Of a stretch of DNA of 64,000 nucleotides, positions 4,632-59,500 are shown piece after piece. The position numbers and the translations under genes are program-made. Origin of the DNA: Callorhinchus milii (Eukaryota); NCBI RefSeq assembly GCF_018977255.1, contig NW_024704742.1:39620001-39684000 (forward strand), read 5' to 3'. The first letter of the stretch is position 1. Each line of letters opens with the position of its first letter. The notes beneath the pieces were generated by a model. The model saw nothing but the letters and a program-made list of their open reading frames with translations, had not been told where the DNA came from and did no database searches.

Positions 4632-4953
4632 GTGGAGTCCTGTAGCTCAGTGGTTAGAGCACTCGCTTTGCAAGCGAGAGACCTGAGTTCAATTCCAGGC
4701 AGGGCGAAACCTTGGGCAAGTTTCCTTACTCCACACAGAGCCTAATAATAATCCCTCCAAAAAACAAAACAATAATAAATTGGTCATTTTTAATCTACGA
4801 CTGTTTGTGGGACATTGCTGTCCGCAATTGGCTGCCGCGTTCGCCCACAAATATACAGTCAATTCACTTTACAGTGTGTTCTGTGAAGCGCTTTGGGACG
4901 TCCTCCCGACGTGAAAAGCGCTATATCAAATGCAAGGATTATTATTATTATTA
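4632..4953 (+). mobile_element. Young tRNA-Ala-derived SINE (short subfamily) with Deu-like body and L2-like tail
   Basis: Box A TAGCTCAGTGG, box B GAGTTCAATTCC, anticodon arm CTCGC-TTTGCAA-GCGAG (TGC). The 3' ~50 nt is shared with L2. Ends in (ATT)n. Confidence 0.92.
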
Positions 4954-5879
4954 GTGTGTCCAGAACAGCTTCCATCACAGATATCTGTCATTACACACTG
5001 CAATCACATGCTTATAAACATAAAGCATCAATGTATTTAAAGAGGAAAATTGACTTACTACTTACTTATTACTTACAATACAATACAGTTTACATTTATA
5101 CAGCGTCTTTCATGTCAGGTAACCTTCTCAAAGCGCTTAGCTATAGGAGGGGGAAAATATCAATGCAAAACAAATGCTTAATGTTCACACAATTTCCAAA
5201 GTTAGAAAAAGCATGTCTGTTTAGGATGGAACAACACACTGCAGTTTGAGGGTGAAATGGTTGAAAGTTCCTTGTTGCAAGAAGAATCTTTGTAAAAAAA
5301 ATACTGCATCATTCTGGGTCTGAAATTTTGTTTCTTTAGAAAAGGAGGAGATAATAATAATAATAATAACAATCTTTATGCTAATATAGTGTATTTCACA
5401 TCAAGATGAAGTCGAAAAGGGCTTCACAGAATTTACTGTAAAGTGTAGTGACTGCTTATATTGTAGGTGAAAGTGGAAACCAATTTGCATACAGCAATGC
5501 TCCATAAACAGCCATGAAGTGAATGACCAATTTTATTTTTTGCAATAATAGAAAATGCTAAAAATTGGATCTAAACTTTTGCAGAAAAATGGATAATGTA
5601 AGAGAACTTGGAATGTAACAAATTAATTAATGCATCCCAAATGTGGTCGTAACATTTGTCAGAGTTTGTGAGATTTTTGAGGGTTTAAATGTGCTGCACA
5701 AAAATACAGCTTTAGTCAGAGGTTCAATAGGTTAAAGAATTTGGTTCATTCACTTCAAAGTGTAGGTATTGTATATTATTATTTGACATGTAATCAAAGA
5801 GAATTTGATTTTAGATGTCTGGTGCGAGGAAATGTGTTTTCAACAAAATGAGTCTGCAGCTTTCAAAGTCTATTGACTT

Positions 5880-6330
5880 TAGGCAGAGGATATTACATTG
5901 TATTTGATATTTGTTTTCAGCTCGCTGACGTGCCTTGGGAATTTTATTTAGTAGGAAGAATTATATTCCTTTTCTGTAAGAGCTGTTGGCTATGCTTAGC
6001 CATTCCTTACAAGAACACAGGTTTCAAAGCCCTAAACAACGTGTTTAAAATGACTTTGGGATTTAAAAGAACTCAGGTTTAGTAGTTCATCTGATAATCT
6101 GAGATTTGGTGTTGACTCTACAACAACAACAACAAATTATATTTGTAAAGTGCCTTTCACGTCGGGAGGACGTCCCAAGGTGCTGGGCAGTCAGGGATTT
6201 GGACCCGAGCTGGGGGTTGAGATCAGGAGGCATGGGGGGCAGGGAGGGTATTGGTAGGAGGCAGGGAGGATAGGGTTAATATCATAGTACTTGAATCTTG
6301 TTTCATCGTCTTCAGAAGGACTCAAAATAT
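5880..6330 (-). pseudogene. Possible heavily decayed acidic/C-terminal part of the SOX4-like pseudogene (split by an L2 3' end at ~6120-6270)
   Basis: 6272-6323 reads SPSEDDETRFKYYDINP (cf. SSSDDEFEDDLLDLNP). ~6045-6092 reads DELLNLSSFKSQSHF. ~5880-5945 reads KFPRHVSELKTNI (cf. EFPDYCTPEVSEMI). Order and strand fit, similarity is weak. Confidence 0.35.
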
Positions 6331-6789
6331 ATAGAGAGGCTTTGTCACTTCAGAAGACCCTCCTTTAAATGTACAGAAATTCACAACTGTAGTTTAATTC
6401 TGCTCTATATGTCTGTTTATACAGTGGTGTCCAACCTGTAGGGTGGGGCCAGAAGTGGCCGTCAAGAAACAGCTTCCTGAACATTCACATGAGCCTTGTC
6501 ACGTCATTGAGACGTTTCAAAGCATTCACAGAATACATTGTAAAGTGGATTGACTATGTATTTTGTGGGCGAAACACAGCAGCCAATTGCGCACAGTAGT
6601 GTTCCACAAACCAAATTATAGTGACAAAATTATTATTATTGAATTCTTTTGATTGAATTTTTTTGGGGGGGTTATCACCCCTGGAAAGCAATCTGCCAAT
6701 TGACTAACAACCAAGTTCCTACTGAGCTCTAGGTAAACAGAGGCATGTGTGGAGTAAGAATTCCTGAACTGCACTGACAGTGCTTACAC

Positions 6790-7191
6790 CTCCCTAACCA
6801 GAGGCCATTCAATACAATCTGCTGCCCTGGGAGACCCCTCCTACCACCTCAGTGGTGAGGTCAATCACAGCTCACTGGGGGAGCTTTCGCTGGGTGAATC
6901 TGGAACCTTCACTCCTGCCCCCGCCCCCGCCTGTTAAACCTTTGAAGAAGCTGACCCTGTTGCTCGGTTCAGCTGATGACCTGAGGGTCATGTTGGCTGA
7001 CAGGATGGCTTTAGAGGTAGTGCCTGGCCCCCAAATAACTGCCTCTCTTTTAGTTTCTTATTTACAAGGCACTGAGAAGTAGGTCTTGGCTGCACTGTGT
7101 AAATTGAGTATAAATTTGTGATGCCAGAGTGCGGATGCTCCTGAGAAATCGGAGACTTGGAATTCGTACCCAAGATGATTCTGGGTGTTTA
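6790..7191 (-). pseudogene. SOX4-like: SOX4-like pseudogene, central fragment (resumes after L2 insertion)
   Basis: With frameshifts it reads PRIILGTNSKSPISQEHPHS...NKKLKERQLFGG...SAEPSNRVSFFKG. These are collinear with SOX4 motifs KPHAKLIL, DHHSLYK, EKKVKRVYLFGG and ADPSDPLGLYEE. It joins the 7620 fragment directly when L2 7192-7618 is removed. Confidence 0.75.
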
Positions 7192-7618
7192 CAGTTCAAG
7201 ATCCTGGTCCTCACCTTCAAAGCCCTCCATGGACTTGCTCCCCACTACCTCTGCGACTTCCTAACCCCCTACCATCCTGCTTGTTCCCTCCGCTCAGTGG
7301 GCTCCGGCCTGCTTTACATCCCCTGCCTCGCTCGCCCCACCTTGGCAGGCGGGCCTTCCGTCACTCTGCCCCCACTACTCTGGAACTCCATCCCACAGTC
7401 CCTCTACTTCGCTTGCTCCCTTGCCTCCTTCAAGACCCATCTCAAGATCCTCCTCTTCGACCGTGTTTTCGATCTCCCTGCTTCCCCCCCTGCCCTCCAC
7501 CCTCCCCGATCCCGACCCCCAGCTCGGGTCCGAAACTCTGTCTGTCCAATACCTTGGGACTTCCTCCCGACGTGAAAGGCTCTATACAAATGTAACTTTG
7601 TTTTTGTTGTTGTTGTTG
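7192..7618 (+). mobile_element. L2-clade LINE 3' fragment inserted in the SOX4-like pseudogene
   Basis: QFKILVLTFKALHGLAPHYLCD...LWNSIP...SFKTHLK, with a (GTT)n tail. Confidence 0.92.
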
Positions 7619-7619
7619 T

Positions 7620-7897
7620 ATTGCTGGATTTGTTAATGCTACTACTGCTGCTGCTCTTCATAGCTGAGAGTTTAAATGTTGATCTCTTCACTTTTCTCTT
7701 CGGGCTAATTGCTTGCACTTTTTGCCTTCTTTTTGGTCTGTACTTGATAATGCTTCAGTCACAGGCTATCAGCTTCTCGCATAAAAGGGATCTCATCACA
7801 GTTTTTCAATAATTTCTAACATTTACCCAGAAGCTTGGAGATCTCAGTGTTGTGCATGAGGCAGTGATTGTTCCATGATCTTCCTCCTCTCTATCTG
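7620..7897 (-). pseudogene. SOX4-like: SOX4-like (SoxC) pseudogene: HMG box and following Lys/Ser-rich segment
   Basis: Minus strand reads [11 protein letters not shown] [frameshift] [34 protein letters not shown] [MADYPD missing, frameshift] YKYRP [frameshift] KKAKSASN*PEEKSEEIN. Recalled SOX4: [66 protein letters not shown]...SKPGEKGDK. Stops fall at W (TGG>TAG) and R (CGA>TGA). Confidence 0.93.
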
Positions 7898-7904
7898 CTG
7901 CTGT

Positions 7905-8055
7905 TTAAATGATTATTTGGGGAGGACAAGTTTGCAGGGCTATGGGGAGAGAGCAGGGGAGTGGGATTGATTTGGATAACTCTTTTCAAACAGCCAACAT
8001 AGACATTGTGGGCCGAATGGCCTCCTTGTATGCTGAATAATTGTATGATTCTATA
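7905..8055 (+). mobile_element. CR1 3' UTR fragment abutting the 5' break of the SOX4-like HMG box
   Basis: CAGGGCTATGGGGAGAGAGCAGGGGAGTGGGA...GGGCCGAATGGCCTCCT...TATGATTCTAT is a typical CR1 3' end. Confidence 0.8.
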
Positions 8056-8303
8056 GATAAATCAGTGTATTTTCATGTTTTTCTCGATTGAATATTTCTT
8101 GATTTTTATGGAATAAATCAAGACTGTCCGACCATAAATCTTGCCACCAATGGTTTACAACATTAATGGAGAGAAAATAAATAAATAATCATAGCATTTG
8201 TTATGACCCTTTTCACATCAGGATGATGTCTCAAAGTGCTTCACTTTATTTACTATGTTGAAGGTGACGTCTTTTGGATGAGATGCAAAGTCCCATCTAT
8301 ACA

Positions 8304-8602
8304 AAACACAAAATACTGCAGATGCCGGAAATCTGAAAACAAAAACAAAAGTCACTGGGAACACTCAGCAGTTCAGGCAGCATCTATGGAGAAAGGAAAG
8401 TGAGTCAATATTTCGGGTCCATGACCCTTCATCAGAACTGGGGCTGTTGGGAGGCAGAGGCTTTTAAGGGCTATCAGAGAGGGGGAGGCAGAGTAAGGAA
8501 GACAAAGGAGAAAATGGGGTGGAGGACAGGGGATGATGAATGATGGTCCATTGATGCTGCCTGACCTGCTGAGTATTTCCAGCGACTTCTGTTTTTGTTC
8601 CA
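8304..8602. mobile_element. Non-autonomous Penelope-like terminal-repeat element with inverted ends and 9-bp TSD
   Basis: ATCTATACA at 8295-8303 and 8603-8611. Imperfect ~48-bp inverted repeat (8335-8383 vs 8553-8600) with GATGCTGCCTGACCTGCTGAG, a motif typical of shark Penelope-like ends. Confidence 0.75.
8403..8439 (-). ncRNA. Degenerate minimal hammerhead ribozyme motif (Penelope-type)
   Basis: AGTT-CTGATGA-A-GGGTC-ATG-GACCC-GAAA-TATT-GACT: both core boxes, perfect 5-bp stem II, and stem I AGTT/GACT. The stem III and cleavage region is altered. Confidence 0.65.
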
Positions 8603-8877
8603 ATCTATACATGTTCAATGGGCATTAAGCACCCCATGCACTTTTTGAAAAGAGAATGGAGTTTCTCCAGGTGTCCTGACCAATGATTCTCCCCAGATAA
8701 AATTGGTCATTTCACTTCATGGTTGTTCATGGGACATTGGCTATCACATTAGCTTACAAATTGTGCACACATTACATTTTGTAGTAAATCATGTGAATCT
8801 CTTTGAGTTGGTCTCTTGCCATGAAACGTGTTGTATGAAATACAAGGATTATTATTATTATCATGCTGATTTACATT

Positions 8878-9345
8878 TTTGGGAGCCAGTGAAGCCAGAT
8901 GAGGGTGGGGGTGATAGGCTCGCGGAGTCTCCAGCGGGAAAGGATATGGGCTCCAGAGTTCTGGATCATCTGCGGCTTGAATACAACAACAACAACAATA
9001 GAGAAGAATTGGGAAATCCAGCGAATAGAACATTGGCGTCATCTTGCCTGGATGTGATAAATACGTACAAGAGGGTCTCTGCAGCCTGGAGGGAGAGCCA
9101 GTGGCAGAAGCAGACAATATTTGGGAATTGGGGAAAACCTGAACATATGTGGTGCTTAAAGGACAGTTGGGAGTCAAACAAGATACTGAGTTTCCGCACT
9201 GGCTCTGCAATTGCAGGTTGATGCTGTCAGCACGTCAGGCGAGAAAGCGTTGACGGAAGCCAAGCAGCAGAGCGTCTGCTTTGTTGACATTCAACTGAAG
9301 AAAGTTAGAGCTCATCCAGGACTTGATGTCTGACAAGCAATCAAT
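8878..9345 (-). mobile_element. Older internal L2 ORF2 fragment
   Basis: LSILFDSQLSFKHHI...AAETLLYVFITSRQD.ANVLFAGFP. Confidence 0.8.
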
Positions 9346-10249: not shown

Positions 10250-12492
10250 CTAACGGCAATGATAGAAAAGCAGAATAATTCATCATTACTAAAAATACAC
10301 TAACTAAAGAGAAAGATTTAGCTAGTAACTGATTCCAGCATGAAGTGGCTCCAATGTATGAATTATTGTGGATGGTTTATCCAGATTTAATCTTGATGAT
10401 ATTCATGCTGCTTCAATTTTTATCAACACCAGACACATAAATCATGGATTCACACTACAGCTGCTATAATAATAATAATCCTTGCATTTAATATAGCGCC
10501 TTATCACATCTTCAAGGCATCTGAAAGTGCTTCATAGAATATACTGTAAAGTGAATTGACACTATATTTTATTGTGGGCGAAATTTTCATGAGTGCACAG
10601 ACAACTTGTTTTCAAATAATCGGTACTTATTTCTTACCAGTGACAGACATGCTTTTATTCTCTTATGAGCTTTGCGACGTCCTCCCGACGTGAAAGATGC
10701 TCTACAAATATAATTTTGTTGTTGTTGTTGTTCTTATGGCCATTTTGCTACACAGATGCAATTTTCATGTTTAATCGACCCAAACTCTGCAAATGCAATG
10801 TAACTACAGAGTTAGCACTTGTGAATTAATGCTTTGCAAATTACATGTTTCTTAATTCAGCCAAGGTGTCAGTTTTGGACTTTGCAACCATTCTAATTTG
10901 TCAGCACTTGAGGTCTCTGTGAGGGAATATGTCTTATTCCATTTGTTAACTGGCCAGTAATCCTACAGGTAAATTGTTATCATTCATTTCACAGTTATTT
11001 AAAGGGACTTTACAATGCACAATTTGATGCCACATTCACCTACAAATTCAATTACAAAAATAATTTGTGATGTGGTTTGAGACATTTTGAAGATATAATA
11101 ATAAAATAATAGACTTTGCCTCAGGATGGCATTTCAAAGTGCTTCACAAGATTTACTGTGAAGTGTAGTAACTGAAATTGTAGGAAACACAGCAGCCAAT
11201 TTGGTGACAGCAATGTCCCCCAAACAGCCATGAAGAAACCAGTTTTATTTGGGGAATTATTGGCCAGGACTCTGGGAGAAACTCGCTTCTCTTTCTGAAT
11301 AATACCATGGGAGCTCTGAACACCTATCTCAATTCGCAGACAGGACATCAGTTTAATGCCTCAATTGAAAACAGCACCTCCAGCAATGCAGTGCTCTCCT
11401 TGCAACCTTCTACCTCAGAAGTGAGAGTGCAACCAACTGAGCCATGCTGATACCAAAGTTGTAATAACCAGTATTGTATTAATTTTATGTGAGGAAGAAA
11501 ACTTTATATTGAAAGTACTCAATCCTTTATGACACTCTTTCTTCATAATTACCATTTTTGAGTAGAACACTTTAACAGTGTTATTTGGAAAGATGTCATG
11601 TTTTGTAATGGTTATTTGTCATGGCTAGGTTTTTAATGTGAGCGATATTTGAATTTGTGAGCTGACCATAATTCACTCGAGATTATGTCTCGTATTTATT
11701 TTCTTGTCACCCTCGTTTATAGAAATATTTATCATTTGTCATTGCTTTGTCATTTTGATTCACACCAGCAGGAAAATGATTTTTATTTCAATTGCATTAC
11801 TCAACACAAGTGCCATAAAGTAATGTCTGCACCTCAGATATTCTGGCTACTGTGATATTCTTTTAATTTATGGTTATATTTCCCATCTTACTCTCATTTA
11901 CCAATATTAATGTTTTTATATTAGATGATATAAGAACACTGTGCATAAATAATACTACTAATAATAATTAATTCTAATTGTTGCTTTCAAAACCCCAGCT
12001 CGGATACTGAGCAGAATTCTTAAATACCTCGGGATGGCCTGCTGACGTGAAATAAATATGAATTAGTATTGTACATCCTTGCATTTGATATAATACATTG
12101 CCACATTGACAAAACATCTCAAGGTGCTTCACATAATTTATTGGCATGTGCAATGACTGTTTGTAGATGAATAAGCATCTCTAATAATGATCTATGCAAC
12201 ATTCATTCTGATGGCTTAAAAAATGGTAACTCAGAAACAAGGCATTTGTCCGGTTAACCTTCCCTAAATGTTTGGGCTTTGACTCAAAGGATTGGGATCA
12301 TGCGTAAAGATCCAAGTCTTATTGATGTACTTGACAGGCCAGTCAAGCAATAACTATGCCTTGGATTACTGCAGATCTGCTTGATGTTTTGTCAGATGTT
12401 TCTCCTGGGAGCCAGCTCTGTCCTGGGGAGAAGGGGGTAGGGCATTTTGTCTCTCCCCACTGCAATGGAAGATATCTGATGTTTCCTTAGAA

Positions 12493-12852
12493 TAGTGGAA
12501 TCCTGTAGCCCAGTGGTTAGAGCTCTCGCCTCATAAACGGGAGATTGTGTTCAATTCCCAGCAGGGTGAAATGTTGGCAAGTTTCCTTACTCCACACGCC
12601 TGTTTACCTAGCAGTAAGTAGGAACCCAGTTGTTAGTTGATTGGTGGATTGTTTCTTCGGGGGTAATAATCCCTTTCAAAAGAAATTGGTCACTTCAATC
12701 CACGACTGTTCGTGGAACACTGCTATGTGCAATTGACTGCTGCATTTTGCCCACAAAATATAGTCAAATCACTTTACAGTATATTCTGTAAATGTAATAA
12801 GGCGCTGTATCAAATCCAAGGATTGTTATTATTATTATTATTATTATTATAA
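12493..12852 (+). mobile_element. tRNA-derived SINE, long subfamily
   Basis: Same head and tail as the short form, plus internal TGTTTACCTAGCAGTAAGTAGGAACC...GTTAG segment. Confidence 0.88.
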
Positions 12853-17397: not shown

Positions 17398-17712
17398 GTA
17401 GAGTCCTGTAGCTCAGTGGTTAGAGCACTCGCCTCGCAATTGAGAGACCTGGGTTCAATTCCCGGCAGGGCATAACTTTGGGTAAGTTTCCTTACTCCAC
17501 ACGCCTGATAATGATCCCTCAAGAAAAAAACAATAATAAATTAGTCACTTCAATCCACGACTGTTTGTGAGACACTGCTGTGCACAATTGGCTGCCACAT
17601 TTCACCCACAAATATATAGTCAATTCACTCTACAGTATATTCTGTGAAGCACTTTGAGACATCTAGAAGATGTGAAAAGTACTATATCAAATGCAAGGAT
17701 TATTATTTATTA
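17398..17712 (+). mobile_element. tRNA-derived SINE, short subfamily (5'-truncated relative at 46345-46595; related copy at 18040-18375)
   Basis: GAGTCCTGTAGCTCAGTGGTTAGAGCACTCGC...CAAGGATTATTATT. Confidence 0.9.
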
Positions 17713-20700
17713 TTTATGTTATTCTTCAGGGAATTTTTCAGCAATGGATCAATGTCATGTGGTGCTATAATAGGAACAAAAAGATAAAGAAACCATTCAG
17801 TCCATCACAAACAATGCAAAACCTCTACCCTAATATTATTCTGTGGTATCCCAATAATTTAAAACTTCACACGCTCTCTAATTTTGCAGTGGTGCTATCT
17901 ATTTTAACTAGAAAATATTAGAATTAAAACCACACATATTTAATAACACTGCCAAGTTAGTATCCATGACTTATGTTGGATGTAAGGATCCTGGAGTTTA
18001 CAACTTGCAATTATATAACGCTCTTCTTCTAGGGTTAATAGAGTTCTGTAGTGTATTGGTTAGAACAAATGCCTTTGCAAGCGTGAGAACCCAGATTCGA
18101 TTCCTGGGTAGAGCAAAACCTTAGGCAGGTTTCCTTACTCCACATGCTGGTTGATTGTCTATTGGGTAACTTTCTTCAAAAATCCCTTCAAAACAATAAT
18201 AATTTGGTCACTTATCCACTTCTGTTTGTGAGACACCTCTATGCACAATTGGCTGCTATGTTACGCCCACAAAATACATAGTAAATTCACTTTACAGTAT
18301 ATCCTGTGAAACACTTTCAGAAATAGTAATGACGTGATAAGGCGCTATATCAAATGCAACGATTATTATTATTAGTAGGATTATTTATGAGTATTTTGGT
18401 TAGGAACATAAAATGGTCAAAGAGGTCGTTTTTCAGGTGGGATTCAGAGATAGATAGAGAAGGGTCAAGACAGGGAGGTAGTTCCAGAAGTTAGATGTGC
18501 AGTTACTGAAGGCTTGATGTGGAGGGGATGAGGTGTGAACTGCATATTGCGTATTTTCCAAGGAGGTGGAATGGGTGGATTGGAGTCAATAATGGGCCGG
18601 AGTTTGAGTGATTTATGGAGGAACTGAGCTCGACAGGCTGGATGACCTGTACTCATTCCAAGTTTCTTAGGTCCTTTTCCAGCCATCTTCAGTGGCCAGA
18701 AATAGTCCAGTTGGTTCTCAGTAGGGTCAGGAACCAAAGAATTCAATGCAACTTAGAATAATTATATCTAATCCATAAAGAGATTTCCTTCAATGGCCAT
18801 TCCCACTAATATATCATTTTGACACTTCTGTTTCCATGTATATTTATGGGTCTTGGAGTCAGATCACATAATTGTCATCAAATTATGGCTGTTTGTGTGC
18901 TGTGGATTCCTGTCCAGTGGAAAAAAAGAATAAAAACTGTCCAAGCACATTTTATTTTCCATTATTAACAGAGAGAAACCTTTCATTCCATCTGTCTAAA
19001 TTGGATTCAATCCCAGATTCAGGGCAGGAAAAGCATTTGATGCCAACCCATCATGCCACCTCATCCCTCCTTCAGCTGTTTTGTGAAGTATTACTGACAT
19101 CAGGACTCAAAGGATTCTGTGGCTTTTCCATCTGCCATCTCCAGGTGGAAGAGATTTGAATGGAGGTGAGTAGCTGTACATTGTTTTGGGAGAGAGGAGA
19201 TGGGGGGGAGCCCATTACAGTTAAACAATAGGGTATTTTCAGTACAACAGATTTTCAACTTTATAATAAAATAAATTTATAAATCTAAATATGGAAACAA
19301 ATTGACTTTTGTCCGGCTGCAATGTGAATTCATGCCATGATGGAATTACCACTTGAAATAAGTTATGAATTTTCTGCTGTGCTCCAGGTAAATGAACTAA
19401 CAGGTTATTTACGCTCTTGTTTTATGCCACGTTTTAGTAAAAAGAGTTGTTATTGCAAGTTGTTGTTGATGTTATTGTAAATATTGGGATCTTTATCAGG
19501 CTTCATTGCACACACTGCTTCAGTCAGCCTAAGCATTTAATTGCAACTGCAAATTCCCAAAGCTAAACCTGTAGGATATCTTTGCCATTATTCAAGGAAT
19601 ACCTCACATGTTATTTTATAGTACATGATCCTCTTCATTGCCATTTAATCGCTTCAGCCAAGAATAGCTTGCACTGCCCCAAGGGTGAAATCCTCCTTTA
19701 CCACACAGTGATAAATGGAGCAACCTAGCAGGAACCAGCCTCATTACAACCTTCTCAAGAAAGTCAAATAGGTCCTACGAAATTAAAGAGTAGCCACAGA
19801 TAGGGTAAAAAAAACACAGATCTAGGTATGTCTCATGGAAACATGTCTTTCATTCTGACAGTTACTTACAATCTGCTAATAATAGGCATCATTTTTCCCT
19901 TGTTGACACTATTTTCAAGGTCAGCACATTGTGTGACATTAATAAATGAACTCTGAAATGAAGATTTAAAGCTTCATCTTTCTATTGCTATGCTTCACCC
20001 CACCTGATGTACAGTAGGCTTCACAATCCTATGATTGCATAGGGAGATTGTTCGCAAAAAGTATGTGTGTGAGTGTTTTGTCATAAAATAGCCTAATGTG
20101 CCAAAATAACCTGGCACCTCACAATTCATACACTTTTCATGAATACAATTTTTAGCAATGCAAGAAAAGAATAGCTTACAAATTCAGATTTTTAGCTTTT
20201 TTTAATGAGATCAAGTGTTAATCTGAATCAGTTGGTACCACTCATGCTTTTGAGTCAGAGGGTCGTGAGTTCAAGCCACACATCAGGACTTTGAGCTCAC
20301 AGTCTAGGCAGCCACTCCAATGCAGTGCTGGGGGTGTCCTGTGTAATCAAAGATGCCGTACTTTGGATAAGACATTGAACTTGAGACATCTCGATGATGT
20401 GATAAGGCACCATCACATGGCTTATCACATTATTGAGGATTCTAACAGGATTCTTTATAATAATCTTTGCAAGATTAGAATACCAATTGGCCCTTGGGGA
20501 ATTTTGCTCCAGAAGCGGATTGGATAGAGCGGAGTTCCCACGAGCTGGTCTAACAAACATCCAGTTTGGAATCCTCATGTAATCCTCATTTGAATGATTT
20601 GAATTCATTATTGTGGATTCCCATTAAGGCCATTAGAACTAATTTGTGCAGGAGTTTGATCATGATGATTTTTAGGCTTGAAATAAGAATATTTATGCAT

Positions 20701-42829: not shown

Positions 42830-44422
42830 AAATAAAAAAAAGTGATGGATAAAATAATGAGACTCAAAATAGGCAAATCTCCAGGAACTGACAGATTCCA
42901 CCCCAGGTTTTTAAAGGAAATAGGAGAGGAAATTGCAGATGCATTGGTCATGATTTTCCAAAGCTCACTAAATTTGGGAATTATGCCCTTAGATTGGAAA
43001 ATTGCTAATGTCACCCCTTTATTTAAGGGGGGGAGGGAGAGACCAGGAAATTACAAACCTGTCAGTTTAACGTCGGTTGTAGGGAAATTACTGGAAACCA
43101 TCATCAGGGACAGAGTGACTGAACATTTGGAGAGGTATGAGTTTATCAAAGGGAGTCAGCATGGGTTTGTAAAGAGTAAGTTGTGCCTAACTAATCTAGT
43201 TGAATTTTTTGAGGAAGTCACTAAAATGGTCGATAAGAGAGTGTCTATGGATGTCGTTTACATGGACTTTCAGAAGGCATTTGATACACAAAAGATTATT
43301 AGCAAAAATAGAAGCGCGCGGAATCAGAGGTAAGCTTGTGACGTGGCTTCACAATTAGTTGGGAGGCAGAAAACAGAGGGTAAGGATTAAGGGAATGTTC
43401 TTTGATTGGGGGGATGTGACAAGTGGTGTCTCCCAGGGGTCTGTACTGGGACCTCAGCTTTTTGCCATATACATAAATGATTTGGATGAAGAAAAAGAAA
43501 GTTCTATATCCAAGTTTGTGGATGACACTAAGATAGGAGGCTCAGCAGGTAGTGAAGATAGGAGTAGGAAGTTACAGAGGGACTTAGCCAGATTAAGTGA
43601 GTGGGCAAAGCTGTGGCAGATGGAGTTCAATGTAGGGAAGTGCGAGGTCATCCATTATTGACCAAAAAAAAAGGGCAGAATACTTTCTTAACGGGGAGAA
43701 ATTAAGAACTGTGGAAGAGCCAAAAGATTTGGGTGTCTATATCCACAAATCACTAAAAACTGGTTCCCAGGTGCAAAACATAATCAAAAGGCAAATGGTA
43801 TGTTGGCCTTTATCTCGAGAGGCCTGGAATACAAAGGGGAAGAAATTATGCTTCAGCTGTATAGAGCATTAGTCAGACCCCACCTGGAGTACTGCGTTCA
43901 GTTTTGGGCACCACACCTCAGGAAGGATATATTGGCCTTGGAGGGGGTGCAGCGCAGGTTCACCAGAACGTTACCAGCCAAAAAGGGTTAAGTTACGAGG
44001 AAGGCTGAGTAAACTTGGATTGCATTGCCTCGAGTTTAGAAGATTGAGGGGTGATTTGATAAAGGGATTTGATAGGGTAGATGCGGAAAAGCTATTTCCC
44101 ATGTTGGGGGAATGCAAAACAAGGGGGCATAGTCTTAAAATTAGAACCAAACCATTTAAGAGTGAAATTAGGAAGCATTTTTTCACTCAAAGGGTGGTAG
44201 AAATCTGGAACTCTCTCCCCCAAAAGGGCGTGGATGCTGGATCCATCCACACTTTCAAGAAAGAGATTGACAGATTTTTGGTAGTTTGGGGTATTAAGGG
44301 ATACCAGGAGAAAGCGGGAAATTGGAATTGAAATTCTCGTCAAGATTAGCCATGATCGAATTAAATGGCGGAACAGACTCGATGTGCTGAATGGGCTATT
44401 CATGTTCCTATGTATTCCTATG
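42830..44422 (+). mobile_element. CR1 LINE, 5'-truncated, disrupted ORF2 reverse transcriptase plus 3' UTR
   Basis: Peptides KSPGTDRFHPRFLKE, DWKIANVTPLFK, YKPVSLTSVVGKLLE, SQHGF, VYMDFQKAFD, GVSQGSVLGPQLF, KFVDDTKIGG, LVRPHLEYCVQFW, FFTQRVVEIWNSLP. Ends in GTTCCTATGTATTCCTATG. Confidence 0.95.
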
Positions 44423-56569: not shown

Positions 56570-59500
56570 CTACATCAATGAAAAACAATTTGAAAAAATG
56601 AGGCTGTAATGAATGGGTACCCAATATTCAAGCAAGGATGACAACTTAAATATTTTCAGCGTTGAATTATAGAGTAGATTGTTAAGAAAACAGGAGAGCA
56701 AAGCATATTTTTGTGCATGCTTCCTAACTCAGGCACAAACCACATTTTGACAGCAGGATTTCCTCTTGGAAGCCAATGTTTGGTGAAACCCACGATCCTC
56801 CAGAATGTCTAGGAGCCAATCTGATAAAACATAAAATAACATTCTTTTACCTGGCAGAAACCATCATGCAAAAAAGCCAAAGAGGAAGGAATTTTTGATT
56901 CCTTTGAAATCACCCCAAAGGCAACGGTTATCATTAAATATAAAACAAATTTCCTTATTTTTTGCTAAGCATCTGTTTTTTNATGAACTTTTATAGGCTA
57001 ATATCAAGGTCTCTACAGATGAATAATACATCTTTGCTACACATTTCAAGTAATGTAATTATGTTTTTTCTTTTAAATGTGAATGAAGCTTTTGCGATGT
57101 TACTTAATGTTGATCCTGGCTATGAAATAATAGTCCAGTGTAAATGTATGGTGTCATGGCACAGTGCAGTGTTTTGTGTTATGAAAGTTCAGGCCTGTGT
57201 TTCTTCACATAATAAGTTCCCCGATTTCAGTCCAAATAGTCTACCACCCAGGCTAGGCAAATATTGACATAGAGATAGACTTGGTTCACAAATCATAGTT
57301 TATTATGAGGAGGGACCAGGACAGGATTATTATTGAAATTTTAAGTACTGTTAAGTATCTTGAGAGTTCTGGAGTTGAAATTTTAAATCCGCAATCTGCG
57401 TAGCAACTTTGATGTTGACAATGGAGAAATCCAATCACCGTCCAAAATTGTGAATGTTGGTATGAATCAATTGCAACGGGATTTTCTGTGTCTTTCTTTA
57501 AAGTGTACATGTGTCTCATTGTTCACAGGAAGGGAAGAGCAGGAGAAAAGAAAGATAGATGATGGGACATGGAAATTGAGAAAAGAGATATGGGAAAAGA
57601 AAATGAGAGAACGAATACAGAGAAATTAAAAAGTGATTAACGAGATTCAAAAGTGGGAGAGACAACCAGACGGAAAAGTATTCCAGATTTCCAGACCAGT
57701 CAGTTAGGCTCATTAGTAGGACTGGGATTGTTCCCACTGGGCTCATGTTAATCCTGCAAGCGAATGGCCTAATGGGTAGAATGCTTTTAGCTGGACAAGC
57801 AGCAGGAAACTTGCTAGACGGTACTCTCAATGGCAAGATATGCAGTTTTACCTTGTTGGACACCAACCAATGTACAAAATTGCTGAGTAAAATGGCGAAA
57901 GCAGCTTCCAATTTATTTGTATGGCCTTTGGGACTGCAGGAAGCTCTGGTCTGAGCATTCCTGCTCTTTCCTTTTTGGAATTCAATAATTGTCAATCTCC
58001 CAAGGTCAGGACCAGAGAGAAGGCAGTTATTGATGCTCAGCAAGGTTTGGAGCTAAGAGAATACTTGTTTCCAAAGCCTAACAACAGGGAACATTTTCAG
58101 AGCATTATAGATGAGGGTATCCTCATTCTACTACTTATCCAACAGTGCAGACAACCAGTTTTGCTGAGCGTGAAATAAGCTTGTTAAAATTGTTATACTG
58201 AGTTAGCCTAAAGACATTCAGAGTTCCTGCAGACATGCTGGCAACCACTTTGCTATCTATTACTATATATCAGGATCCCTAAATCTAGCTTCTACTTTAA
58301 AGAATGGGCCTCTGGGATGATCCCACTGTGTGTCAAAGTCCATGGTTTAATTTGGAAACCAAATTGCATGTTGCAAATTGCAATATAGCTCTCAAGTGTA
58401 GAGTGGGAAGCTAAAGTTGAAAATAATTGAGATTATAAACACAAGTTAATTTTAGTCACAAATATTTTATAAACTGAGCAGGATCCAAATGAACTTGAGA
58501 CAGAACATTTTCAGAAGGAAACTGTGATGTGAATATCGGTCTGTGAAAAGCTGTTAAACCTTCCATCACATCTCGAGGGCCGATTAATTGCTGAGCTATT
58601 TAGCATTGACTGCGGCATTGTTTGACACAAATTCCCAAGAGGACGAGGCTGTTTTTCAACTTAATGTCTGGCTCAAAGCCTGCACAGATCATCCCAAAAA
58701 TCAGGGAATAAAGGAAGATGCTATCTTTTGAATAGAATACAATTTGGTTGGATAGGATACAACATGGATTTTCTGTGGGACACCAGATAGGGGGCCAACA
58801 AATGTGTAACAGTGAGTGGGAGGGAAACATCCTGAAGCCCATACAGAAAGCTTATCAAATACAAAATAAAATGCTTTAGTTCTGGCAGTCATACCTTCAT
58901 GAGATGTGAAAAAAAATAATCCCCATTCTACCTCCTTCTCCAAAGAAATGACAGATCAATGGTTTTACTTTGTTTAGCTCAGAGACATTGAGGCCATTTG
59001 TAGCACAGACCAGTGAGTTGGAATTCCTGGTTCCATGTGATACATTTGTCACTGAGCCACAGGGGAAGACTGAGCTTTGTGTTATAAATTAACTGTATGC
59101 TAGAAAATGTTCCTTGAGTCTTGACAGCTTTTAAACAGACAGCCAAAATCGTTTCAAAATACATTTTTTTCCTTAAACATAACAAAAACACCAAAAAAGT
59201 GAAGGGGAAAAACTTGCAGTTTGTCATAAGATAAAAACCTGCAAAGCTCTGTTATGACATTTCATATCTATTATGTGGCAGTTCAATGCCCTTATTAGTT
59301 CCAGCACTCTCTGTAGCTTGAGACTAAGCTTTTCCTTTTTGGTTGAAAGTTCAGCACAAAACTCATATTTTGTATAAATAACCTATGGAAATGCATAGTT
59401 GGACACAGACCAGCTATTGTGCTCTGCACTGATTAATGAAACTGTCCGCAGCAAGAGACCTATTAAAAAGGAAACCAGGAAATCTTTGTGTTAGAAGCCT

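What the first reader, a model, noticed from the sequence alone, without database searches (positions are those of the whole stretch)
5880..7897. Hidden, fragmented SOX4-like (SoxC) pseudogene, possibly the remnant of an extra SoxC paralog
Seen: a broken HMG box ([11 protein letters not shown] 11/11, then 25/36 identical to the recalled SOX4 segment, then YKYRP) with two stops in conserved codons, frameshifts and loss of MADYPD. SOX4-type motifs follow in order (PEEKSE~PGEKGD, RIILG~KLIL, KKLKERQLFGG~KKVKRVYLFGG, AEPSN~ADPSD, DDE..DINP~DDEFEDDLLDLNP). Two L2 pieces and a SINE interrupt it, and a CR1 tail sits at its 5' break, so no ORF in the track shows the HMG box. Established: jawed vertebrates have three single-exon SoxC genes (SOX4/11/12); KLLK..D favours SOX4 over SOX11 (KMLK..E) and SOX12. 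Inference: since SoxC genes lack introns, this could be a SOX4 retrocopy, a segmental duplicate, the dead SOX4 ortholog, or a fourth whole-genome-duplication ohnolog lost late in a slowly evolving cartilaginous-fish lineage.
Basis: partly seen in the sequence, partly recalled or inferred. Interest (0 to 1): 0.85.

Follow-up and report, generated by a model that had tools for sequence, protein, structure and literature searches.

The report
Dead partial SOX4 copy, one of three
This stretch holds a real but long-dead, incomplete copy of the developmental gene SOX4, one of three related dead copies in this chimaera-type fish genome; it is an ordinary gene fossil, not the remnant of an ancient extra SoxC gene.

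Summary
The broken SoxC HMG box is real. Read through its stops, window 7675-7857(-) matches the genome's own SOX4 at E 4e-12 and 9e-19, and the SOX4-type motifs follow in order. The relic spans only about 6801-7898, not 5880-7897, and the last claimed motif (DDE..DINP near 6300) has no support.

An intact SOX4 (414 aa) lies on contig C2. Intact SOX11-like, SOX12-like and fourth SoxC genes also exist.

Two more dead copies lie on C8 and C2. All three hold only an internal piece of the coding sequence (about nt 125-870). No terminal coding, UTR similarity or shared flank was found. The window and C8 copies share a frameshift, a TGA stop, the 17-bp MADYPD deletion and a truncated SINE.

In an ML tree the three form one clade (97) inside chondrichthyan SOX4 (100/96). 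An origin outside gnathostome SOX4 is rejected (AU p 0.018).

Verdict: an ordinary, lineage-specific SOX4 pseudogene family. The whole-genome-duplication ohnolog and dead-ortholog readings are refuted. How the copies spread is unresolved.

The fourth intact SoxC gene, sister to SOX11 and listed only from cartilaginous fishes, is more interesting than the finding itself.

The parts
7750..7898 (-). Remnant of the SoxC HMG box, starting in mid-box. It holds [11 protein letters not shown] (7865-7897), a +1 frameshift, TAG at 7816-7818 (Trp codon) and TGA at 7759-7761 (Arg codon). A 17-bp deletion (MADYPD) lies between 7750 and 7749.
7618..7749 (-). Post-HMG linker of SOX4 type (YKYRP, KKAKSASN, PEEKSEEINI, SSSSINKSS). 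It carries further frameshifts and stops, including TAG at 7705-7707.
7190..7617 (.). Insertion of a 428-bp high-copy interspersed repeat. It is absent from the C8 sister copy, so it was inserted after the two copies separated.
   Evidence: 26,622 first-look candidates, 40 scored, 86-88% identity; C8 is contiguous across this site
6853..7189 (-). Central, non-HMG part of SOX4 (RIILGTNSKSPI, LVNKKLKERQLFGG, SSAEPSN, VPDSP). It corresponds to residues 169-287 of a shark SOX4.
   Evidence: E 3.7e-16, 40% identity
6801..6852 (-). Tail shared with the C8 and C2b copies that cannot be aligned to any SOX4. It contains GGGCAGCAGATT (6816-6827). In the C8 copy this 12-mer also stands at the 5' edge of the SOX4 fragment.
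6480..6760 (-). 5'-truncated tRNA-derived SINE (profile positions 104-327 of 332), present at the same place in the C8 copy. Similarity between the window and C8 ends at its 3' tail.
7906..8054 (-). First 150 bp or so of another interspersed repeat, cut off where it meets the 5' break of the relic. The first 82 bp or so that the C8 copy keeps (SOX4 CDS nt 125-206) are missing here.
5880..6479 (.). Not shown to belong to the relic. It has no significant SOX4 similarity and no similarity to the sister copies. It includes an inverted partial copy (6120-6248) of the 428-bp repeat family.

Best explanation
Window about 6801-7898 (minus strand) is a non-functional relic of SOX4. It is later split by a 428-bp repeat and followed by a truncated SINE.

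Shown:
- It derives from the SOX4 lineage of cartilaginous fishes, not from SOX11, SOX12 or the fourth SoxC.
- The living SOX4 is intact elsewhere in the genome.
- The relic is one of three copies: C1 (this window), C8:505.2-505.9 kb and C2:63.8877-63.8885 Mb.
- All three carry only an internal piece of the coding sequence (about nt 125-870 of 1245). They have no start, no C-terminal transactivation domain and no detectable UTR.
- The window and C8 copies share disabling lesions, so they were copied from an already dead template.

Inferred:
- One partial SOX4 copy arose on the holocephalan line, after the split from sharks and rays but early. It died, and was then re-copied twice as a discrete unit of about 0.75-1 kb.
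- First, the C2 copy separated from the C1/C8 ancestor. Later, after a SINE had landed behind the fragment, C1 separated from C8.
- The copying mechanism is not settled. I favour retroposition of a pseudogene transcript primed on the SINE tail for the C1/C8 step (about 40%). The alternative is capture of a small DNA segment at a chromosome break.
- The relic has no present function.
For: Family assignment:
- Read through its stops, the window is identical to own SOX4 at 114 of 188 compared positions and to a shark SOX4 at 119 of 181. Against own SOX11 it is 65 of 178, against SOX12 54 of 148, and against the fourth SoxC 54 of 142.
- At the 20 positions where all 4 intact chondrichthyan SOX4 share a residue that none of 8 bony-vertebrate SOX4 has, the window has the chondrichthyan residue at 12 and a bony one at 1. 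It is missing at 3 and has another residue at 4.

Trees:
- ML tree of 18 sequences: C1+C8 99.9/100, plus C2b 93.7/97, inside chondrichthyan SOX4 100/96.
- AU test: forcing all intact SOX4 to form a clade without the relics costs 12.95 lnL, p-AU 0.018.

Living genes:
- Intact SOX4, SOX11-like, SOX12-like and fourth SoxC ORFs of 414, 459, 352 and 343 aa.

Descent from one dead template:
- C1 and C8 share the +1 insertion, the TGA stop, the 17-bp deletion and the truncated SINE.
- Two-state sites among C1, C8, C2b and SOX4: 26 group C1 with C8, against 8 and 4 for the two other groupings.
- C8 and C2b begin their SOX4 similarity at CDS nt 125 and 127.
- All three share a tail of 37-50 nt past the SOX4-alignable part.

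Discrete unit:
- No low-copy collinear flank is shared in 40 kb around each sister copy.
- The 399-bp 5' flank of the C8 copy is unique in the genome.
- No similarity to 10 kb upstream or downstream of SOX4.

Timing:
- The relics share with own SOX4 the derived Cys of KDCDK (C1 and C8) and the Asn of SNKP (all three).
- At the 27 positions where own SOX4 differs from three agreeing elasmobranch SOX4, the window carries the elasmobranch state at 10 and the own state at 5. It is missing at 8 and has another residue at 4.
- K2P distances are 0.158 (C1-C8), 0.28-0.30 (to C2b) and 0.38-0.40 (to SOX4).
Against: - The sister relation to the species' own SOX4 is weak (SH-aLRT 45.7, UFboot 58). An origin before the shark-chimaera split is not rejected (p-AU 0.137).
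- Dead sequences attract each other in trees, so the 97% support for one origin of all three may be inflated. The 68 sites where all three differ from SOX4 cannot be assigned to a branch.
- No poly(A) tail, UTR or target-site duplication was found in the window copy, so retroposition is not shown.
- If the window copy had been inserted into the repeat at 7906-8054, the rest of that repeat should lie behind the SINE. It does not.
- Pfam's HMG_box profile did not list any of the three copies among 50 genome matches at E <= 0.001. The family call therefore rests on homologue-based searches that read through stops.
- Orthologous copies in other cartilaginous fishes could not be looked for.
Confidence: 0.88

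Rival explanations
1. The relic is the remnant of a fourth SoxC ohnolog from the vertebrate whole-genome duplications, lost late in this lineage.
For: Only the general expectation of four ohnologs. The window shows no host genes that could argue either way: 133 of the 144 ORFs of 70 aa or more were scanned, and the only hits were reverse-transcriptase fragments and weak chance hits.
Against: - The relics nest inside chondrichthyan SOX4 (100/96).
- Exclusion from gnathostome SOX4 is rejected (p-AU 0.018).
- They carry 10-12 of 20 chondrichthyan-specific SOX4 residues.
- A fourth SoxC is alive on C10 and is sister to SOX11, not SOX4.
Confidence: 0.01
2. The relic is the dead SOX4 ortholog of this species.
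For: SOX4 is its nearest family.
Against: An uninterrupted 414-aa SOX4 with a full HMG box and C-terminal domain lies at C2:30827419-30828660. It is 96% identical to the protein that a source names SOX-4 of Callorhinchus milii.
Confidence: 0.005
3. The three copies are independent retrocopies of SOX4 mRNA, not descendants of one dead copy.
For: - The parent gene has no introns, so retrocopies are hard to tell from DNA copies.
- The copies lie on three different contigs or far apart, without shared flanks.
- C2b keeps MADYPD and has an A9 run shortly after its tail.
Against: - C1 and C8 share three disabling lesions and a SINE.
- C8 and C2b start within 2 nt of each other.
- All three end at the same internal point, with a shared tail that is not SOX4-alignable.
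- No UTR similarity was found.
- The three are monophyletic at 97.
Confidence: 0.06
4. The fragment is kept for a function, for example as a non-coding RNA or regulatory element.
For: The 140-bp tail at window 6761-6900 is 92% identical between C1 and C8, higher than the 81-86% of the rest.
Against: - All three copies are riddled with stops, frameshifts and repeat insertions.
- GC content has fallen to 44-49% and CpG count to 9-11, against 68% and 80 in SOX4, as expected for neutral decay.
- The three copies differ by 14-25% from one another.
Confidence: 0.04

Closest known systems
SOX4 (SoxC group of SRY-related HMG-box genes)
   Same: - SoxC-type HMG box.
- SOX4-specific linker (KKAKSASN, P.EKSE) and central motifs (IILGT, LV.KKLKER, AEPS..VSF), in the same order as in shark and own SOX4.
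   Different: - No start codon.
- The first 68 or so residues and the last 90 or so residues, including the C-terminal transactivation domain, are absent.
- At least 4 stops, several frameshifts and a 17-bp deletion.
- Split by a repeat.
Processed pseudogenes (retrocopies) of intronless genes
   Same: - Dispersed to other chromosomes as a short discrete unit without shared flanks.
- 5' truncated.
- The C8 copy has a 12-nt direct repeat at both edges of the SOX4 fragment (0 of 2000 shuffles reach it), which may be a target-site duplication.
   Different: - No 3' UTR and no poly(A) tail in the window copy.
- The 3' end lies inside the coding sequence.
- No target-site duplication was found in the window copy.
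Duplicated pseudogenes (a pseudogene copied from a pseudogene)
   Same: C1 and C8 share lesions that must predate their separation.
   Different: Typical segmental duplicates share long flanks. Here similarity ends at the fragment's edge and at a SINE tail.
Chimeric retrocopies made by LINE template switching or by read-through into a SINE (recalled from the literature on L1-mediated chimeras; no paper read here)
   Same: The C1/C8 shared unit is a SOX4 fragment followed by a SINE in the same orientation. Similarity ends at the SINE's 3' tail.
   Different: No target-site duplication around the whole unit was found. The SINE is missing from C2b, so it was not part of the first event.

Membership tests
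SoxC / SOX4 lineage (by descent) | SoxC-type HMG box | tested here: met
   Read through stops: 61% identity over 67 residues plus 11 of 11 for [11 protein letters not shown], E 9e-19; E 4.2e-12. Only the last two thirds or so of the box are present. The Pfam HMG_box genome scan did not list the locus among its 50 matches.
SoxC / SOX4 lineage (by descent) | SOX4-specific sequence outside the HMG box, and placement in a SOX4 clade | tested here: met
   E 3.7e-16 to residues 169-287 of a shark SOX4. Inside chondrichthyan SOX4 at 100/96. Exclusion from SOX4 rejected, p-AU 0.018.
Functional SoxC gene | Uninterrupted reading frame from a start codon | tested here: not met
   Stops at 7816-7818, 7759-7761 and 7705-7707, frameshifts, a 17-bp deletion and a 428-bp repeat insertion.
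Functional SoxC gene | Conserved C-terminal transactivation domain (..HFEFPDYCTPEV..DWLE..) | tested here: not met
   A profile of 123 SoxC C-termini run against 9 frames of the three tails gave a best E of 1.1. Nucleotide local alignment was no better than shuffles: 496, 225 and 101 of 500 shuffles reach the score. There are no tblastn hits.
Processed pseudogene (retrocopy) | Poly(A) tail at the 3' end | tested here: inconclusive
   There is none in the window or C8, where a SINE sits at that place. C2b has an A9 run about 20 nt after the shared tail.
Processed pseudogene (retrocopy) | Target-site duplication | tested here: inconclusive
   None of 10 nt or more (1 mismatch allowed) was found around the three units as first delimited. 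A 12-nt exact direct repeat flanks the SOX4 fragment in C8 (0 of 2000 shuffles). The search windows for that repeat were chosen after seeing the sequence.
Processed pseudogene (retrocopy) | Carries the parent's UTRs but not its promoter or introns | tested here: not met
   No similarity of the heads or tails of the copies to 10 kb upstream or 10 kb downstream of SOX4, apart from common repeats. The intron criterion cannot be applied because the coding sequence is a single exon.
Segmental (DNA) duplicate | Flanking non-genic sequence shared between copies | tested here: not met
   No collinear low-copy matches outside the unit in 40 kb around C8 and C2b. The C8 5' flank is unique in the genome.
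2R whole-genome-duplication ohnolog | Branches outside all gnathostome SOX4, at the depth of the SOX4/11/12 splits | tested here: not met
2R whole-genome-duplication ohnolog | Paralogous synteny with SOX4/11/12 neighbourhoods | not testable with these tools
   The window shows no host-gene domains in 133 of the 144 ORFs of 70 aa or more that were scanned. No vertebrate gene annotation or wider flank was available.

The most novel reading that the evidence does not exclude
The three relics are very old fossils, possibly hundreds of millions of years old, still legible because this genome changes slowly. They come from one dead internal SOX4 fragment that was re-copied at least twice as a discrete unit. 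The last copying was by retroposition primed on the tail of a SINE that had landed behind the fragment. Because they froze early, they keep the ancestral chondrichthyan SOX4 sequence (SSINK, IILGT, LV.KKLKER, as in sharks). They would thus show that the non-HMG part of the living SOX4 of this lineage was later rewritten by GC-biased substitution (68% GC and 80 CpG, against 44-49% and 9-11 in the relics).
Probability: 0.3. Interest if true: 0.35.

Novelty: new member of a known kind. Interest (0 to 1): 0.2.

Why it matters
The relic itself matters little. It is a dead gene fragment of a familiar kind, and it removes a tempting but wrong reading, that of a lost fourth SoxC ohnolog.

Two by-products have modest value:
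- The three relics give an internal outgroup. They date changes in the living SOX4 of this lineage and point to strong GC-biased change outside its HMG box.
- They are a small, clean case for asking how short gene fragments get re-copied in a genome dominated by CR1/L2-type elements and SINEs.

The fourth living SoxC gene, noted in passing, bears more directly on the long-standing question of which 2R ohnologs survived in which vertebrate lineage.

Tried and rejected
- **C-terminal domain.** By eye, window 6790-6890 looked like the SOX4 C-terminus (PDYCTPEV..GDWLE). Local alignment against shuffles and a protein profile gave no support, so I dropped it.
- **SINE head.** The same stretch could have been the tRNA-like head of the following SINE. 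A profile built from 9 SINE copies matches only from profile position 104 on and finds nothing in C2b. Rfam finds no tRNA there.
- **UTR content.** No match to 10 kb on either side of SOX4.
- **Carrier transposon.** The C8 5' flank is single-copy, and the shared tail occurs only in C1 and C8 by this search.
- **Insertion into the repeat at 7906-8054.** The repeat's continuation is not found within window 5000-9000.
- **Target-site duplications around the whole units.** None found.
- **Expression.** No RNA holder was listed for window 7618-7898. I did not lay reads.
- **Pfam on the broken frame by reference.** The genome-wide family scan that reads through stops lists 50 HMG boxes but none of the three relics.
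- **Host genes in the window.** 133 of the 144 ORFs of 70 aa or more were scanned. I left out 11 that overlap the relic, its inserted repeat or SINE and repeat copies. Only reverse-transcriptase fragments at 42836-43658 and four weak sub-threshold hits appeared.
- **Literature.** Searches found no paper on a SOX4 pseudogene or a fourth SoxC in cartilaginous fishes. One search failed on a term that was too short.
- **Earlier findings of this scan.** None.
- **First family tree run.** It timed out and was repeated with a fixed model.
Full report
**1. What is there**

The window is G000:C1:39620001-39684000 of a 991-Mb assembly. On the minus strand, 7865-7897 encodes [11 protein letters not shown].

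After a one-base insertion, the next frame reads [12 protein letters not shown], a stop, [18 protein letters not shown], a stop, then LKH. A 17-bp deletion follows where MADYPD should be. After it come YKYRP-type and KKAKSASN/PEEKSEEINI-type linker sequence.

A genome search with the species' own SOX4 protein, reading through stops, finds window residues 83-150 at E 4.2e-12 (67% identity; 1 TGA, 2 TAG). It finds residues 175-283 at E 2e-6. Local tblastn gives E 9e-19 and 1.8e-12 for the same pieces. A shark SOX4 gives E 3.7e-16 over its residues 169-287, at window 6853-7188.

Pfam's HMG_box profile run over the genome lists 50 matches but none at this locus. The call therefore rests on homologue searches.

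**2. Extent and repeats**

Nothing past about 6850 aligns to any of five SOX4 proteins, and the claimed DDE..DINP motif near 6300 has no support.
- A profile of 123 SoxC C-termini finds nothing in the tails of the copies (best E 1.1).
- Nucleotide alignment to the SOX4 3' end is no better than shuffles.

A 428-bp repeat sits at 7190-7617 (26,622 first-look candidates, 40 scored at 86-88% identity). The C8 sister copy is contiguous across that site.

A tRNA-derived SINE family is defined by copies at 4633-4953, 12489-12850 and 17401-17730, with Rfam tRNA hits. It contributes a 5'-truncated copy at about 6480-6760, in the orientation of the relic. This copy matches profile positions 104-327 at E 6e-54.

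At the 5' break, the first 150 bp or so of another repeat (2,024 candidates) ends at 7906. Other copies of that repeat continue where the window switches to SOX4 sequence. I could not classify these repeats as L2 or CR1.

**3. The living SoxC genes**

The genome holds four uninterrupted SoxC genes:

| Gene | Position | Length |
|---|---|---|
| SOX4 | C2:30.83 Mb | 414 aa |
| SOX11-like | C3:13.97 Mb | 459 aa |
| SOX12-like | C18:1.70 Mb | 352 aa |
| Fourth SoxC | C10:10.90 Mb | 343 aa |

Sources name identical or near-identical proteins as SOX-4 (96%), SOX-12 (100%) and SOX-11-like (100%) of Callorhinchus milii. The relic is therefore not the dead SOX4 ortholog.

**4. Two sister relics**

The genome holds two more broken copies.
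- C8:505250-505928(-) is 86% identical to the window over the HMG and linker part and 81% over the rest.
- C2:63887729-63888474(-), called C2b here, is 74% and 71% identical.

In a four-way alignment with SOX4, C1 and C8 share the +1 insertion, the TGA stop and the 17-bp deletion. C2b keeps MADYPD. C1 and C8 also share the truncated SINE.

Among two-state sites, 26 group C1 with C8, against 8 and 4 for the alternatives.

C8 and C2b begin their similarity to SOX4 at CDS nt 125 and 127. All copies end near nt 843-868, then share a further 37-50 nt that align to no SOX4.

No similarity exists to 10 kb upstream or downstream of SOX4. Outside the unit no low-copy collinear similarity exists in 40 kb around C8 and C2b. 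The C8 5' flank is single-copy.

**5. Where the relics branch**

Read-through translations, with X at stops and broken codons, were placed in an alignment of 12 SOX4 proteins plus the own SOX11, SOX12 and fourth SoxC.

The ML tree gives C1+C8 99.9/100 and all three relics 93.7/97. The relics nest within chondrichthyan SOX4 at 100/96 and are sister to the own SOX4 at only 45.7/58.

| Constraint tested | delta lnL | p-AU | Result |
|---|---|---|---|
| All intact SOX4 together, without the relics | 12.95 | 0.018 | rejected |
| Four intact chondrichthyan SOX4 together, without the relics | 3.4 | 0.137 | not rejected |

Character counts agree.
- At 20 chondrichthyan-specific SOX4 positions, the window has the chondrichthyan state at 12 and a bony-vertebrate state at 1. 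It is missing at 3 and has another residue at 4.
- Two derived states link the relics to the own SOX4: Cys in KDCDK (C1 and C8) and Asn in SNKP (all three).
- At 27 positions where the own SOX4 departs from three agreeing elasmobranch sequences, the window keeps the elasmobranch state at 10 and the own state at 5. It is missing at 8 and has another residue at 4.

I infer that the fragment left the SOX4 line on the holocephalan branch, early.

K2P distances are 0.158 (C1-C8), 0.28-0.30 (to C2b) and 0.38-0.40 (to SOX4). SOX4 is 68% GC with 80 CpG, and the relics are 44-49% GC with 9-11 CpG.

Absolute ages would need a neutral rate that I do not have. With a slow rate near 0.7e-9 per site per year (my assumption), the three events would fall roughly at 100, 200 and 300 million years.

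**6. How the copies spread**

This is not settled. An internal coding fragment without UTRs, poly(A) or shared flanks is odd both for a classic retrocopy and for a segmental duplicate.

Three clues stand out.
- Similarity between C1 and C8 ends at the 3' tail of the SINE. This is what retroposition of a transcript primed on the SINE tail would leave.
- In C8 a 12-nt exact direct repeat, GGGCAGCAGATT, stands at both edges of the SOX4 fragment (0 of 2000 shuffles). I chose the search windows after seeing the sequence. Its 3' copy is at window 6816-6827.
- C2b has an A9 run where C1 and C8 have the SINE.

Against insertion of the window copy into the repeat at 7906-8054, the rest of that repeat is not found behind the SINE.

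**7. Function**

None is indicated. No RNA holder was listed, which says nothing either way.

**8. Comparison and novelty**

The relic is a member, by descent, of the SOX4 lineage, and a pseudogene by every test of integrity. It fits neither textbook class of pseudogene cleanly (see the membership table).

In five full-text searches I found no paper on SOX4 pseudogenes in cartilaginous fishes. For one paper, PMC5524304, I read passages and a supplementary table. That table lists three elephant-shark SoxC contigs.

**9. Side result: a fourth SoxC gene**

The fourth SoxC (C10) has relatives named SOX-11-like, SOX-12-like or SOX-4-like in eight other sharks and rays among the top 120 hits. None comes from bony vertebrates.

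In a tree of 37 SoxC proteins (JTT+G4, columns with more than 50% gaps removed, rooted on a hagfish SoxC), SOX4 pairs with SOX12 (98). The fourth clade (100) is sister to all gnathostome SOX11 (92).

This is the pattern expected of a 2R ohnolog kept in cartilaginous fishes and lost in bony vertebrates. Absence from a top-120 list is not proof of loss.

Noticed in passing
G000:C10:10904065-10905096 (minus); locus L029:988-2019: A fourth intact SoxC gene (343 aa), 100% identical to a protein named SOX-11-like of Callorhinchus milii. Orthologs were listed in 8 other sharks and rays, and none from bony vertebrates among the top 120 hits. In a 37-protein tree it forms a clade (100) sister to all gnathostome SOX11 (92), while SOX4 pairs with SOX12 (98). 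It looks like a 2R ohnolog retained only in cartilaginous fishes. No paper was found on it. The supplementary table of PMC5524304 lists only three elephant-shark SoxC contigs.
   Followed up: partly
G000:C2:30827419-30828660 (own SOX4; locus L028): Over CDS nt 207-868 the living SOX4 is 68% GC with 80 CpG. Outside the HMG box it has replaced many residues that sharks and the three relics still share, for example SSINK to SGGGK, IILGT to TIPGT and LVDKKLKER to LADRKPKDR. This suggests GC-biased, Gly/Ala-enriching change in this lineage.
   Followed up: partly
G000:C2:30827419-30828660 compared with protein P0002: The SOX4 ORF of this assembly has 414 aa, while the database protein named SOX-4 of Callorhinchus milii has 400 aa. 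They differ in the His-run region (SGHQRKPPPGGHHHHHHHHHPRS against SDHHHHPRS). This is an allelic, assembly or annotation difference.
   Followed up: no
window 4633-4953, 12489-12850, 17401-17730 (plus strand): Full-length copies of a tRNA-derived SINE of about 320-360 bp with an (ATT)n tail. Rfam tRNA hits of 53.5, 30.7 and 53.1 bits lie at their heads. The copy at 4633-4943 is 96.8% identical to one on C8, so the family was active recently. A subfamily carries an extra body segment of about 60 bp.
   Followed up: partly
window 42836-43658 (plus strand): Two ORF fragments with reverse-transcriptase (RVT_1) matches, E 8e-7 and 1e-10. This is a decayed LINE or retroelement.
   Followed up: no
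window 1-64000: No host-gene protein domain was found in 133 scanned ORFs of 70 aa or more. The window looks gene-poor and repeat-rich. A single N stands at 56982.
   Followed up: no
G000:C8:505199-505210 and 505932-505943: An exact 12-nt direct repeat, GGGCAGCAGATT, lies at both edges of the SOX4 fragment in the C8 copy (0 of 2000 shuffles reach 12 nt). It may be a target-site duplication or microhomology from the original insertion.
   Followed up: partly
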